Shown: piece after piece, positions 2,403-39,793 of the stretch | How the letters are laid out: each line of letters begins with the position of its first letter | Numbering within the stretch: the first letter of the stretch is position 1 | Assembly: GCA_051362555.1 (NCBI GenBank) | Contig: CM120645.1 | Location: 24,704,934-24,768,933, forward strand | Direction of reading: 5' to 3' | Length of the DNA: 64,000 nt | Origin: Lingula anatina | Taxonomy: Eukaryota > Animalia > Brachiopoda | Translations under genes and position numbers: made by a program | The notes under the pieces: generated by a model | What the model was told of the DNA's origin: nothing | Database searches by the model: none | Seen by the model: only the letters and a program-made list of their open reading frames with translations

Positions 2403-5400
2403 GTAAGAATTGGGTTTACACTTCACTTGTAACATTTCAGCTCTGGAAAAAGAGGAGGAAATGAGTAAGTGAAATTTAACACTGCATCTGATTGTTATGT
2501 AGCATTTTGTTGTAATTGTTGGTTGACCTCTGACCTTTGCCCCCCAGGTGCAGCTCCTGGTCTCAGCAGGGGATGTAGAGAACTACAAGCAGATCAAGAC
2601 AGACCTTGATGAACTGCGCCTCCTGGTGGAGAAATCTGAGCTCTGGGTGTACAAGACCAAGCAGAATGATGATGATGATGCTGGTTCTCATAGCACAACT
2701 TCCAGTAAGAAGAAGAAGAAAGGCAAGGGGTCTGGACCCTCAGAGGACTCTCAGGTTCAGTATAGACTCATATTAGTGAGCTGTGAAACCATGGTTCAAG
2801 GGCACCTTCACTGACCAAAACTTTCTGTCAGTCAAGTGATAAATCAACATTTTAGCCTACATAACAGTTCTGTTGTATAATTTCCCTTCCCCTGTGTTCA
2901 GAATATAGTACATTCTAGCTCAGGGCAAGGCTGGAGTTGTTATGTTGTAAATAATACTATCTGCAGAAACAGACCAAGCTGTAGTTCTCTGCATTACTTG
3001 TTGTTTTCTGATGTTTTAGGAGGAGAAAGGCAGTGGAGAGTCTAAGGAGAAAAAAGATGAGAAGAAAACACCTAGTTTGGTAGGAAACAGATATATAATA
3101 GTAATACCTTTGTGCTTGTTTTGATATATTTAAATTTTTTAAAAGTTGGGTTGGTCCAAAGACCTATATTGCTGGAGCATGTATACAGGTGACCCTGAAA
3201 TGTCCTTTATATGGCATATTAAAAATTTAGACCAGCTATATAACTTCTTTACAGAGCATGGCATTGATTTTAATACCATAGCTCATACATAGTTCAGAAA
3301 AATGGATTATCAGGCAATGTATGTTTGATGATATGACATTCCACTTTGTGTAGGGTTTGGCTCATGAGAAGGGTTCTGCCATTGATCTAGACATAGGTCC
3401 TCCCATTGACTCCAGTGCCTCCCATAACTACAAGACCATCAAGGAGGTGGGTATCTGCTGAGCTGCCATATTTAGCCACTGTGAGATAAGGCACCTCAGT
3501 TGTTTTACTATCTGTATCTACTGATGTGAGAAATACAAGCCCAGTTCATGGATTAATATGAAGCTTTTGTAAGGTTTAAGAAAAGGAAAAATGGAACACA
3601 AAACATCTTTGTGGAGTTGCTGTATGAAGGATGTTGTTGTTAGATGAAAACCGGTCGTTTTGTACCACTTAATAAAAGTCTTTTTCTTCTGATGTCTTTG
3701 TTTTTGCCATCCAGATTATCAGACGTCTAACAAAGCTGTGTGTCCAGGCCTCTGTACAAGGTCCAAAACCAAAGAAACATGAACAGAGGCTGCTGCGTAA
3801 CATGGGTGCCCACACTGTGGTTCTGGATCTCCTGGATATCCCCTATGAGAAGGTAGAACATATCCTATAAGAAGGTAGAACATATCCTATGAGAAGGTAG
3901 AACATATCCTATGAGAAGGTAGAACATACCACCCAGGAAATAGGTGTCTTCCATTAATAAATGGTTTATCATGATGTTGATGAAATATTTGGATTCCCTT
4001 TCCATCATCTGCTTACTTGTTTTTGTCCTCCAGGCTTTCTATGTTTACTCAGCAAACTTCAGTTCATTTTATTTCATGAAAGAACATGATCAAAACAAAA
4101 AGAGTGGTTTGAAATTAAAAGATAAGTTAATTTGGAGATTAAAAACTCAGATGCCGTATTTGTGTTTTCCAGAGTGCAGACACACGCATGCATGAGATCA
4201 TGCGTCTTGCTCACAAGTTCTTGCAGATGTTCTGTCTGGGCAACCACTCCAACCAAGCCTTGCTGCACAAAAGTCTGGACAAGTTTCTCAATCCTGGGGT
4301 GAGGAGCCTTGCCTTTGATACTTATTATATCATACATAGCAGATTAGTATAATTATATCATGATTTAACGTTTGTCCTAATGTGGCTTAACCTATACAAG
4401 ATTAGATAATCAAATATCTTAGTTTTTTTTTACCAATGATGATGTAAAAGATGACTTCCTTTAATATTTCATATGGCAATATTCTCTGTCAGAGATACAG
4501 TACCGTAGTATGACTGTCAATATTTGGAAGGGCATCAGCTTTAATGGTTTTAATATGCATTGAGTCAGCCAGACAGGATTTGTATAAATATATTGATGTA
4601 GAAGAGAGAAAAAGAATATAAAAAGCTGCATTATGAAGAAAGAATATTCTACCCTGACGTGATGAGTAGCCTTTGTATTGATGCATTCTTGGAGGGCCAT
4701 TAAGAACTGTGTGTGTGTGTGTGTGTGTGTGTGTGTGTGTGTGTGTGTGTGTGTGTGTGTGTGTGTGTGTGTGTGTGTGTGTGTGTGAGAGAGAGAGAGA
4801 GAGAGAGAGAGAGAGAGAGAGAATCCAGATGGCAATCTTTGTAACTTATTGATAGTGCTCTCAACATTACAAAAAGCACACTATGCTTTGTTCAAGGACT
4901 GTATTGTTTTAGAAATGATAGGAGTACAACTAAATATTTTGGGTATTTTTAAAAAATAATACTTGCCATCTTACATTTGGTGTTTTTGCCAACATATCCT
5001 GAAGATTCCAGTAATCTGCCAGTTCCTTGGATATTCATAGATTGATGAATCACAACATGATATAATTAATGTACAGATTTCTCCACAAAAAGGACATTGA
5101 TACCATGGTATACAGGGTATGTCAAAATTAACAATATTTCAGTGGCAGATTTTAAAGCCAAGCAACATTACATGGGATTAACATGAAAAAGTATCAAAAC
5201 ATAATTGTGACTGGTTTTGACATTTGAACGTGACTTAAACAAAGGAGATGTCAGAATGTTTGTTTGACATCCTGGACTCAAAGCACCAGCTATTTTAGGC
5301 AGTTAAAATAAGAAATGAATGTACCATGCATTTTTAACACTAAAAGTGGATTTAACCAAAAGCTAACAACCACAGAGATCAGCACACTTGCTGTATTACC

Positions 5401-8400
5401 TTGTTAATACTCTGAAGTGTACATCCAGTTCACATTAACACAGTGAAGAACTAACACATTGTGGTTGGAATTTCAGGTAAACAGCCTGCAGGGGGTAGGT
5501 ACTAGACTTGGGGTGTCAGGCGTAGACCGCAGGGGGTCAGGTGTGGCAGACTTCTCTTTAACGCTATGTAATATGTATGGAAGATTTTTTGGTTTTTGCT
5601 CCATTTACCATTATGACCTAATTTGGTGGAAACTGGGAGCTTCTCTACTTCAGCTATACTAAGAATGCAGAAAAATACCGTGTGAATTTAAGTTCAAGTT
5701 ATCTGTCATTTCAGTTTGATTAAAAGACAGCTATGTTTTCGTCAAAGATCCATTTTGAATAGGCCTTTTGTTATTTCAAAACAAACCAACCATACATAAT
5801 ATATAATACCAAATACTGTGCAAAGCGTTGCTCTTAGATTAAAAAAAAAAAAAAAAAAAAAAACATCAAAACTACACTTAGTCTGGTCATTTGATATATT
5901 TTCACTGTCAGTACAGTTTTCATTTTGCCATAAATACAGTGAGAGTTCCTCACCATCGTTATAATCTGCTCCCAGAATCCCATCATAACTCCACCAACTG
6001 CTGCCTTCTTGTGGGAGTTTTTATTTAAACTAATTAAGCCATGACATTTTAATGCTTTGCACACATATAAGTGGACCGTATCATAACAATCTTTCAGCTG
6101 TTGTTTTAGTGTTCTTAGAGCTATTTTAAAAGTATGATGGGCTACGTTAATTCCAGTTTCACCTTCCACCCCTCACACCCTCACTCCTGTTGTATCAAAT
6201 AAATACTTTTGAAACTAATGTCTATAGTGTAACCACATTGTGTTCAGTTTGGTGTATGATGGTTTTAAACCCCCTTTCCATTCTTCTCCCCATCACTCTC
6301 ACACACACACACACACACACACACACACACACACACACACACACACACACACAACACACACTAAGCCAGTTGGTATTAAATTCAGGCATCTGTCTGTCTG
6401 TAAATATACTCTTATCTAGTCATCTTTTCTGTTGGGCTTTAATCAATTTCAGGATACTAGGCTGGTCCACCTCCTTACTAGACCCAGCCACCACCTTAAG
6501 GGGCCTGTCTGTCTCCTTGCTGGGCCCGTGCACCTCTTTACTTGGCTCCTCCACCTCCTTACTGGGTCCATCTCCTTACTGGACCCATCAACCTCCTTAC
6601 TGGCCTCATTAACCTCCTTACTGGCCATGTCCACCCCTTACTGGCCTCGTCCACCTCCTTACTGGGCCTGTTCACCCTTATTTGGCCTTATCATTTCATT
6701 AGTCTATCATTATTTGGGTGTTTCAATCAGATTTTTTAAAAAAATTTAATGCTTTATAGACAGGCCACATTTCATAGAAACGTGTCTAGCTGCATCACAG
6801 ATTTGGTTTTATGTGTTTTGCAAAGAACATTATTTGGCTTTTGTCTGTTTGGCGCTAAATAATTTCTTGTTTAAAAGTCAGATTTTATCAATTCTGCTTA
6901 CCTTAATGATACATGTGGATCATAAGATGTGAAAAAAACTGGCTTCAGTGATCTCCATATAATTCACTGTGCTTGTACTGACCATGTTCTCCACTGGTTT
7001 TAGATCTGTGTGCCCCTTGCCTTGGTCGACTCAATAGGGAGAAGAAAAAGGAAAAGTGCATTGCAAGCAGTTGGGTCTACCTTAACTCATTAATTCAGTT
7101 GATATATAATTTTATTTTCTGTTGTTTTTTCTTTGGGTTTGTTGTTTATCAATAGACTTTTTTGGGTTTGCTGTTGTTGCACAGCCATCTTTGCAGGTTG
7201 ATAATTGAATGATTCACAGCATTGTGATTTTATTCTAGAGAAAAGTTCTGTCTGTGATCTAGGCATCCCTGTGTCTCTTTTCATCTCCTCCATCTAGTCC
7301 TCATATTTGGTAACTTCAGCTTTAATCATCTCCTCTAATATCAGGTGTTCTGATGCCTGAAACTTCCTTTTCATGTTTTTTTTCATGATTTCATGTCCAA
7401 AGTTTGAAATGTCCAGACATTCCAGATAGAACTTTTCACAATGAGATCTCCCACTGAGGAGGATGGTATAGAGCTTGCATGCTCCCAAGGCTTCAAAGGT
7501 CCATTGGCTTCATAGGTGTGCAGTAGAAAGAAGAGCAGAGGAACACAGGCAGTACTGATTTAAATGCTCAGCTCTGATCTGAAGAAGTTTCAGTTTTGCC
7601 ATATTGGCTTCAAACACAGCAATTAGTACACACTATGGGTGCTGCAGCTGCTTCATGATATGACATCTGAAACCCAGGGAGATGTAATCTAGATATGTCA
7701 CAATCACCCTGAATTACAGAGAGTGCCCTAGGTAACAGCTTTATGATATGAAACCCAGGGAGATGTAATCTAGATATGTCACAATCACCCTGAGTTTCAG
7801 AGAGTGCCCTGGGTAACAGCTTTATGATATGAAATCCAGTGTGATGTAATCTAGATATGTCACGATCACCCTGAGTTTCAGAGAGTGCCCTGGGTAACAG
7901 CTTTATGATATGAAACCCAGGGAGATATAATCTAGATATGTCACAACCACCCTGAGTTACATAGAGTGCCCTGGGTAACAGCTTTATGATATGAAATCCA
8001 GGGAGATGTAATCTAGATATGTCACGATCACCCTGAGTTTCAGAGAGTGCCCTGGGTAACAGCTTTATGATATGAAACCCAGGGAGATGTAATGTAGATA
8101 TGTCACAATCACCCTGAGTTTCAGAGAGTGCCCTGGGTAACAGCTTTATGATATGAAATCCAGGGAGATGTAATCTAGATATGATCAGAACTGATGTGCC
8201 GACCTGGGTTGCTCAGGCACCAAAGGTTGGCCATTCTATCATAAAGCAATGTGTTGCCAATTGCAATCATAGCCAAAAAGGCAAAGCTGAACAGTTTCTC
8301 TTGAGTCTGTTACGAAATAATTCTGCTTTAATATGCATTTTTTCCAGGCTTAAATTTTGCATTTTGGATGCCTTTTCCACTACTGCTGCATAAAGACTTT

Positions 8401-39540: not shown

Positions 39541-39793
39541 CACTCCACAGCAGCTGTTTGGGGCGCCACCTATGTAACACTCCACAGCAGCTGTTGGGGC
39601 GCCACCTATGTAACACTCCACACCAGCTGTTTGGGGCGCCACCTATGTAACACTCCACAGCAGCTGTTTGGGGCGCCACCTATGTAACACTCCATACCAG
39701 CTGTTTGGGGCGCCACCTATGTAACACTCCATACCAGCTGTTTGAGGCGCCACCTATGTAACACTCCATACCAGCTGTTTGGGGCACCGCCTA
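39501..39793 (+). repeat. 37-bp tandem repeat x8 spanning the ITPR stop codon
   Basis: unit taacactccacagcagctgtttggggcgccacctatg. Confidence 0.96.

What the first reader, a model, noticed from the sequence alone, without database searches (positions are those of the whole stretch)
3836..39793. Systematic 'boundary-echo' minisatellites: 14 of 33 ITPR exons have their own edge tandemly copied outward
Seen: unrelated arrays (units 17-77 bp, 2 to ~40 copies) straddle 10 donors (3852, 9578, 12760, 13399, 19526, 20310, 21451, 31013, 33786, 37583), 3 acceptors (14591, 16127, 29633) and the stop codon. Polarity is constant: the functional copy is on the exon side and the echoes run into the intron or UTR. 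Only ~5 arrays are purely intronic, although introns make up most of the locus. Inference: either a duplication process focused on exon boundaries (transcription/splicing-linked breaks, R-loops, or chromatin/GC edges, amplified by subtelomeric recombination), or selection for these arrays. More than 100 near-perfect decoy splice sites sit in an intact, conserved gene. I do not know of a named system for this, but cannot exclude prior reports.
Basis: partly seen in the sequence, partly recalled or inferred. Interest (0 to 1): 0.9.

Follow-up and report, generated by a model that had tools for sequence, protein, structure and literature searches.

The report
Mirage minisatellites saturate brachiopod IP3-receptor gene
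In the lamp shell Lingula, 14 of 33 exons of an intact IP3-receptor gene have an edge copied head-to-tail, leaving about 130 spare splice signals that RNA reads skip at the seven sites tested; this repeat type ("mirage") is already known from lancelets, and its roughly 13-fold excess at exon edges likely reflects exon-seeded duplications sieved by selection.

Summary
The window is the telomere-proximal ITPR gene of the brachiopod Lingula (33-exon stop-free model, near-identical to L. anatina ITPR). 14 of 20 minisatellite arrays sit on an exon edge against about 3 expected (P about 1e-8; 1e-4 to 3e-3 after GC weighting; rate ratio 12.6, CI 4.8-36), leaving 131 decoy GT/AG sites. Other DNA runs and a public gene model carry the arrays, so assembly artefact is very unlikely. 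At 7 of 13 splice-site arrays, 201 RNA reads use the live site and no decoy joint was listed. The class is named: 'mirage' minisatellites of amphioxus, with human F7 intron 7 as the tested splicing model. This scan already noted single cases in sea urchins, annelids and a mussel. The constant polarity follows from duplication geometry. Breakpoints are not fixed at splice sites, two units are wholly exonic, and DNA nearer the telomere is array-poor, which argues against spliceosome-aimed breaks or telomere proximity alone. New here: a brachiopod, extreme density and a measured excess whose cause is open (one post-hoc locus).

The parts
2237..39539 (+). 3' part of the ITPR (IP3 receptor) gene of Lingula, 33 coding exons; the 5' part lies outside the window
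   Evidence: Stop-free GT/AG chain; 1229/1288 and 248/251 identities to L. anatina ITPR P0265; tree support 1.0; spliced RNA joints
3842..3928 (+). Donor mirage at exon 5 (3852), 22 bp x4, 3 decoys
   Evidence: an echo unit is translated in P0265
9555..9860 (+). Donor mirage at exon 7 (9578), 17 bp x~18, degenerate, 6 decoys
12728..13056 (+). Donor mirage at exon 10 (12760), 41 bp x8, 8 decoys
13360..14448 (+). Donor mirage at exon 11 (13399), 62 bp x~18, 15 decoys
14469..14616 (+). Acceptor mirage at exon 12 (14591), 77 bp x2, 1 decoy
   Evidence: spanned by one gap-free contig of DNA run X1; 7 RNA reads enter at the live site
15603..15857 (+). Displaced acceptor mirage of exon 14 (16127), 50 bp x5, 5 decoys
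   Evidence: 29 RNA reads use the live acceptor
15852..16098 (.). ~250-bp high-copy dispersed repeat inserted between the exon-14 echoes and the live acceptor (right end read by eye)
   Evidence: X1 contig depth 16383 vs ~10 in flanks, loose ends at 15851-15854
17527..17574 (+). Alternative 48-nt exon, without an array
   Evidence: RNA joints in X15 and X18; same 16 residues in P0265
19453..19857 (+). Donor array at exon 15 (19526); the 74/61-bp unit is wholly exon-derived and begins with the donor motif; 4 decoys
   Evidence: 20 RNA reads use the live donor
20296..20634 (+). Donor mirage at exon 16 (20310), ~58 bp x6, 4 decoys
   Evidence: 51 RNA reads use the live donor
21434..21727 (+). Donor mirage at exon 18 (21451), 73 bp x4, 3 decoys
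   Evidence: 33 RNA reads use the live donor
28490..29656 (+). Acceptor mirage at exon 26 (29633), 52-55 bp x22, 21 decoys scoring above the live site
   Evidence: 23 RNA reads enter at the live site, array present in DNA runs X5 and X9; translated in P0265
30965..33428 (+). Donor mirage at exon 28 (31013), 62 bp x~40, 36 decoys, 37 AATAAA hexamers
   Evidence: 38 RNA reads leave at the live donor; X5 and X9 hold the array and the same distal junction
33778..36644 (+). Donor mirage at exon 29 (33786), 42/32 bp, 21 decoys, split in two (33778-34441, 36438-36644) by a transposon
   Evidence: translated in P0265
34442..36438 (.). ~2-kb element with terminal inverted repeats, flanked by TA, inserted in a decoy donor
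   Evidence: 27-nt perfect arms including the TA; CpG o/e 1.34
37534..37978 (+). Donor mirage at exon 31 (37583), 56 bp x8 (50 exon + 6 intron), 4 decoys
39501..39793 (+). Stop-codon array, 37 bp x8; wholly coding unit whose first three bases form the stop in the second copy
55582..64000 (+). Telomeric (TTAGGG)n tract; the gene lies 16-53 kb from it

Best explanation
These are mirage minisatellites: 17-77-bp pieces of exon edge copied head-to-tail, likely seeded by ordinary break-repair or slippage duplications that arise more often in and beside exons than in mid-intron, likely expanded by unequal exchange, and likely sieved by selection so that only copies leaving the protein intact survive. 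Step 1 (inferred): a side-by-side duplication forms with at least one end in exon DNA. Step 2 (inferred): wholly exonic duplications are purged unless the junction itself supplies a donor or a stop, as at exon 15 and the stop codon; edge-crossing ones put the echo in the intron. Step 3 (pattern shown, process inferred): the two-copy seed grows and the echoes homogenise among themselves while the live copy stays under selection. Step 4 (shown at 7 of 13 sites within read depth): the spliceosome uses the exon-proximal site. Step 5 (predicted): rare decoy use would give a frameshift or premature stop and be cleared by nonsense-mediated decay. The arrays are likely tolerated debris rather than a device.
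For: Excess at edges: 14 of 20 vs 2.8-3.2; rate ratio 12.6, CI 4.8-36. The boundary offset inside units is compatible with uniform (KS P=0.52, 13 units), as expected for random seeds crossing an edge. Two units are wholly exonic yet harmless, and one sits at a stop codon rather than a splice site. Intronic arrays lean GC-rich (fitted slope 10, CI 2-18), and GC weighting lifts the expectation from 3.1 to 5.1-6.7. Echo-echo distance is below live-echo distance at exons 28 (1.7-2.1 vs 4.0 edits) and 31 (3-4 vs 5.2), the concerted-evolution pattern described for amphioxus mirages (PMC3087553 section 16). 201 RNA reads use live sites and no decoy joint was listed. 0 of 104 donor decoys are in frame and stop-free. 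In human F7 the most upstream of identical donors is the one selected (PMC1557585 abstract and Discussion). In human meiosis, break repair yields side-by-side duplications, more so near telomeres (PMC7615360 passages).
Against: The cause of the higher seeding rate at exons is not shown: GC weighting leaves a residual (P 1.4e-4 at the fitted slope, 2.6e-3 at its upper bound). It rests on one post-hoc locus and only 6 intronic arrays. Purged exonic seeds cannot be seen. At exon 11 adjacent echoes are no closer to each other than to the live copy (3.25 vs 2.53 edits). Junction microhomologies are short, imperfect and untested. About 12 mostly sense reads of run X12 lie inside the exon-28 array and are unexplained. 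6 of 13 splice-site arrays were not tested with RNA.
Confidence: 0.6

Rival explanations
1. A transcription- or splicing-coupled lesion (R-loop, stalled spliceosome, nucleosome edge) would target duplications to exon-intron boundaries directly.
For: The excess survives GC weighting. Arrays are dense in the transcribed, CpG-depleted gene body (CpG o/e 0.13-0.26 vs 0.78 downstream) and sparse downstream. Donors outnumber acceptors 10:3.
Against: No fixed breakpoint at the site (KS P=0.52). 10:3 is not significant (P=0.09). Arrayed donors are no stronger than the others (9.3 vs 8.5 bits, P=0.36). One array is at a stop codon.
Confidence: 0.17
2. The arrays would be selected regulatory elements: tandem U1/U2AF sites that tune splicing, NMD or, at exon 28, intronic polyadenylation.
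For: Most echoes keep GT/AG (131 sites). The exon-28 unit pairs a donor with AATAAA 37 times, and ~12 X12 reads fall in that array. The arrays are shared with a run 2.8% divergent in flanking DNA (19 of 688).
Against: The units are unrelated to each other. No decoy joints were listed. X18 has no reads in the exon-28 array. Mobile elements interrupt two arrays, and distal copies are decayed or truncated. GT/AG retention is expected from homogenisation alone.
Confidence: 0.1
3. Generic subtelomeric, GC-biased minisatellite birth; the overlap with exon edges would be composition plus post-hoc choice of an extreme locus.
For: The gene is 16-53 kb from the telomere. GC weighting doubles the expectation, and extreme slopes give P=0.016. 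Intronic arrays alone are not denser than downstream DNA (6 vs 2, P=0.22).
Against: 13 of 19 vs at most 6.7 expected within the fitted range. DNA nearer the telomere is array-poor. No positional trend.
Confidence: 0.11
4. Assembly artefact.
For: No raw long reads were examined; copy numbers in the window are unverified.
Against: One X1 contig spans the 77-bp duplication, and X1 contigs break inside three other arrays. X5 and X9 hold both large arrays and the same distal junction. A public L. anatina model translates echo units of three arrays. Copies carry structured variants.
Confidence: 0.02

Closest known systems
Amphioxus 'mirage' minisatellites (Adh3, troponin C, globins BflGb6/BflGb9, PGBD5). 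Seen: PMC3087553 passages and section 16; PMC3902484 passages. The original Canestro 2002 paper was not held and is known only through these.
   Same: Tandem unit spans an exon-intron boundary; both donors and acceptors are affected; units 10-160 bp there, 17-77 here; GT/AG duplicated; normal mRNA made; concerted evolution with divergent ends; confuses gene annotation.
   Different: A brachiopod, whereas PMC3087553 framed it as a possibly cephalochordate phenomenon; 13 splice sites in one gene, up to ~40 copies; a wholly exonic unit and a stop-codon variant; enrichment measured against a null, which the passages I read did not do. Somatic instability was not tested here.
Human F7 intron 7 37-bp VNTR (PMC1557585; abstract and Discussion read)
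   Same: First unit holds the live donor; identical downstream pseudo-donors stay silent; the most upstream site wins.
   Different: A single site in one gene with 5-9 donors; no acceptor-side or gene-wide recurrence.
Intron gain by tandem duplication of proto-splice sites (Rogers model, as cited in PMC3087553 section 16)
   Same: At exon 15 an exonic duplication starting with a donor motif yields a working donor.
   Different: No new intron is made; the protein stays collinear with homologues across the site, and no echo is used as an exon.

Membership tests
mirage minisatellite | Repeat unit spans an exon-intron boundary | tested here: met
   12 of 13 splice-site arrays have exon- and intron-derived parts; the exon-15 unit is wholly exonic and the stop array is not at a splice site
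mirage minisatellite | Splice signals are duplicated in the echoes | tested here: met
   104 GT and 27 AG decoys
mirage minisatellite | Normal splicing; no aberrant mRNA detected | tested here: met
   7 of 13 arrays tested: 201 reads at live sites, no decoy joint listed at the tool's threshold of 3 reads; low-level use is not excluded
mirage minisatellite | Minisatellite-sized unit (10-160 bp in amphioxus) | tested here: met
   17-77 bp; range from PMC3087553
mirage minisatellite | Concerted evolution inside the array, with end copies excluded | tested here: inconclusive
   Seen at exons 28 and 31, not at exon 11; the exon-10 figure is distorted by one partial copy
mirage minisatellite | Copy-number polymorphism between haplotypes | tested here: inconclusive
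   Contig depth over the arrays differs between X5 and X9, but the tool states that depth is no copy number
mirage minisatellite | Somatic length instability | not testable with these tools
   Needs small-pool PCR or single-molecule reads from tissues
ITPR (IP3 receptor) | Orthology with named ITPRs | tested here: met
   Near-identity to L. anatina ITPR; 59-71% to most other named ITPRs, 49% to Helobdella

The most novel reading that the evidence does not exclude
A germline duplication process aimed at exon DNA or exon edges, about ten-fold above the intronic rate, operates across marine invertebrate genomes. One candidate is repair off the homologue that starts in a conserved exon and mis-anneals where homology breaks down. 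Lingula ITPR would be its most saturated known target and a ready-made in vivo panel showing that position overrides strength in splice-site choice, even against 21-36 equal or stronger decoys.
Probability: 0.3. Interest if true: 0.68.

Novelty: new member of a known kind. Interest (0 to 1): 0.4.

Why it matters
PMC3087553 calls the origin of mirages unclear and suggests they may be a cephalochordate trait. A brachiopod gene with 13 of them, and a measured ~13-fold excess at exon edges, widens the taxonomic range and turns the anecdote into a testable genome-wide question about where tandem duplications are born and which survive. The gene is also a natural test set for splice-site choice among identical competitors. 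It is a practical warning too: the public L. anatina ITPR model lacks exon 5 and most of exons 26-29 and translates echo units instead. No function of the arrays is shown.

Tried and rejected
No whole genome is held, so the genome-wide permutation and telomere stratification could not be run. The original mirage paper PMC117041 is not held. The run index listed no RNA holder; raw-read runs added by species label were laid instead. Single-exon protein searches did not name the organism; a search with a long annelid ITPR did. My first guess of a mollusc or annelid was wrong. Rejected: stronger donors attract arrays (P=0.36); donor bias (P=0.09); copy number rising toward the telomere (rho 0.31, P=0.28) or arrays clustering in the 3' exons (P=0.72); selection against in-frame decoys (0 of 10 arrays, chance 0.36); older hidden echoes at other boundaries (one weak hit at donor 28114 among the 53 array-free boundaries). 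Microhomology was only inspected by eye. Whether the stop-codon array created the stop is unresolved: the last copy reads on for 8 more residues than the live end, but homologous tails vary too much to decide. Literature: 10 searches found no report of mirages in Lingula or of a genome-wide enrichment test. The library lacks most subscription papers, and no supplements were read.
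Full report
Locus. The window ends in 8.4 kb of (TTAGGG)n. Exons read by eye and snapped to AG/GT give a 33-exon chain from 2237 to 39539 that translates without a stop. The product is almost identical to the L. anatina IP3 receptor P0265 (1229 of 1288 and 248 of 251 identities, the differences being mostly model gaps). 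It groups with P0265 at support 1.0 in a tree of 41 ITPRs, far from three Branchiostoma sequences (two short sequences were left out of the tree). The organism is therefore the brachiopod Lingula. RNA confirms the junctions examined and adds an alternative exon at 17527-17574.

Observation. TRF arrays cover all ten named donors, acceptors 14591 and 29633, and the stop. The array for acceptor 16127 is real but displaced by a ~250-bp high-copy insert. A TRF-independent scan of 66 boundaries recovered the same 13 splice sites plus one weak hit. The exon-29 array is split by a TA-flanked 2-kb element with terminal inverted repeats. Counting near-matches that keep GT or AG gives 104 decoy donors (60 with a 9-mer identical to the live site) and 27 decoy acceptors. 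At exons 11, 12, 14, 26 and 28 some decoys outscore the live site on a matrix built from this gene.

More than chance? I collapsed each array to one unit and asked how often a seed of that length would touch an exon edge. Arrays with period under 17 and the 18-mer inside the transposon were dropped, leaving 20 events. 14 touch an edge against 2.8 expected (3.2 if wholly exonic seeds are forbidden), P 8e-9 to 5e-8. Without the stop it is 13 of 19, P up to 2e-7; discounting two further cases, P up to 2.5e-5. The per-position rate ratio is 12.6 (CI 4.8-36). Exons are 48% GC and introns 34%. Weighting seeds by GC with a slope fitted on the six intronic arrays raises the expectation to 5.1 (P 1.4e-4), or 6.7 at the upper bound (P 2.6e-3). 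The locus was picked because it is extreme, and no genome was available, so this is a local result.

Not an artefact. One contig of DNA run X1 spans both copies of the 77-bp acceptor duplication with 4 differences in 1177 bases, and X1 contigs break inside the exon-15, -16 and -18 arrays. Runs X5 and X9, from other samples and studies, carry units of the exon-26 and exon-28 arrays and the same distal junction; X9 differs at 19 of 688 flanking bases. P0265 translates echo units of the exon-5, -26 and -29 arrays. X1 and P0265 need not be independent of each other. Copy numbers were not verified.

Splicing. Seven of the 13 splice-site arrays were tested in up to three RNA runs of three studies, reading 6-25% of each run. 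Live sites carry 7, 29, 20, 51, 33, 23 and 38 reads (201 in all), and no joint from a decoy was listed. Limits: a joint needs 3 reads from 2 starts; one search hid 2 joints and 72 loose ends; only the exon-proximal ends of the two largest arrays were laid. Against a fully silent picture, X12 has about 12 mostly sense reads inside the exon-28 array (estimated from depth), whose unit carries AATAAA. Four X12 reads that lie only partly on the stretch are unassigned, and X18 shows none in that array. No donor decoy gives an in-frame stop-free message (0 of 104), but that is what chance predicts (P 0.36).

Mechanism. The boundary falls anywhere in the unit (exonic share 0.21-1.0, KS P 0.52). Arrayed donors are not stronger, and donors are not significantly favoured (P 0.09). 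Two units hold only coding bases. At exon 15 the unit starts with a donor motif inside a stretch whose peptide is conserved in other phyla; at the 3' end the unit's first three bases make the stop. These look like exonic duplications that survived because the junction supplied the needed signal (inference), which points to seeding in exon DNA followed by a selective sieve rather than to cuts at splice sites. Echoes resemble each other more than the live copy at exons 28 and 31 but not at exon 11. Telomere proximity alone does not explain it: the 15.6 kb nearer the telomere holds 2 small arrays against 20 in the collapsed gene (P 0.003), although intronic arrays alone do not differ (P 0.22), and copy number shows no trend. 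Why exons seed more is open. GC explains part; methylated gene-body chromatin or repair off the homologue failing at the edge of conserved sequence are untested candidates. Human data show that break repair makes side-by-side duplications, more so near telomeres (PMC7615360, passages), which is an analogy only.

Prior art. I recalled the term 'mirage' and confirmed it. [quoted passage not shown] PMC3902484 (passages) adds PGBD5 and troponin C. The founding paper was not held. PMC1557585 (abstract, Discussion) shows for human F7 that identical downstream donors are functional yet the most upstream wins. Earlier notes of this scan report single or few mirages in sea urchins, annelids and a mussel. 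They gave me the F7 and PGBD5 papers; I did not check their loci. None concerns this genome or Lingula. Ten literature searches found no Lingula report or genome-wide enrichment test, within a library that lacks most subscription papers; supplements were not read.

Verdict. A confirmed, unusually dense set of mirage minisatellites in a new phylum: a new member of a known kind, most likely tolerated duplication debris, with a real local excess at exon edges whose cause is worth a genome-wide test. Interest 0.4.

Noticed in passing
window 30965-33428: The exon-28 unit places AATAAA just behind each decoy donor (37 hexamers). PolyA run X12 has ~12 mostly sense reads in the array, while its neighbouring introns have none and X18 has none in the array: retention, pre-mRNA or intronic polyadenylation.
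   Followed up: partly
window 34442-36438: TA-flanked 2-kb element with terminal inverted repeats, inserted into a decoy donor; CpG-rich, so probably young. A TA target suggests a Tc1/mariner-like family (recalled, not tested).
   Followed up: partly
window 15852-16098: Very high-copy ~250-bp dispersed repeat, also seen in many unrelated transcripts, displacing the exon-14 echoes.
   Followed up: partly
window 17527-17574: Alternatively spliced 48-nt exon: included in X18 and X15; no inclusion joint listed for X12.
   Followed up: yes
window 12053-12100: Possible further small exon-like segment with AG/GT ends in intron 9, seen by eye only.
   Followed up: no
window 39760-39822: The last copy of the stop array reads on in frame for 8 more residues, so the duplication may have created the present stop codon.
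   Followed up: partly
window 42208-44820 and 51764-52247: Two foldback/MITE-like elements with long terminal inverted repeats between the gene and the telomere.
   Followed up: no
window 2237-39800 vs 45000-55581: Sharp CpG depletion in the gene body (o/e 0.13-0.26) vs 0.78 downstream, as expected for gene-body methylation (own knowledge).
   Followed up: partly
P0265 (public L. anatina ITPR model): The model lacks exon 5 and most of exons 26-29 and translates echo units in their place.
   Followed up: yes
window 29612-29694 in run X5: X5 contigs do not cover the start of exon 26 and run into unrelated AT-rich sequence there and at 29887 and 30541; possible insertion polymorphisms or filtered records.
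   Followed up: no
RNA run X18: Many fixed differences from the window (most reads 95-99% alike), suggesting a divergent population or cryptic species under the same label; it uses the same live splice sites.
   Followed up: partly
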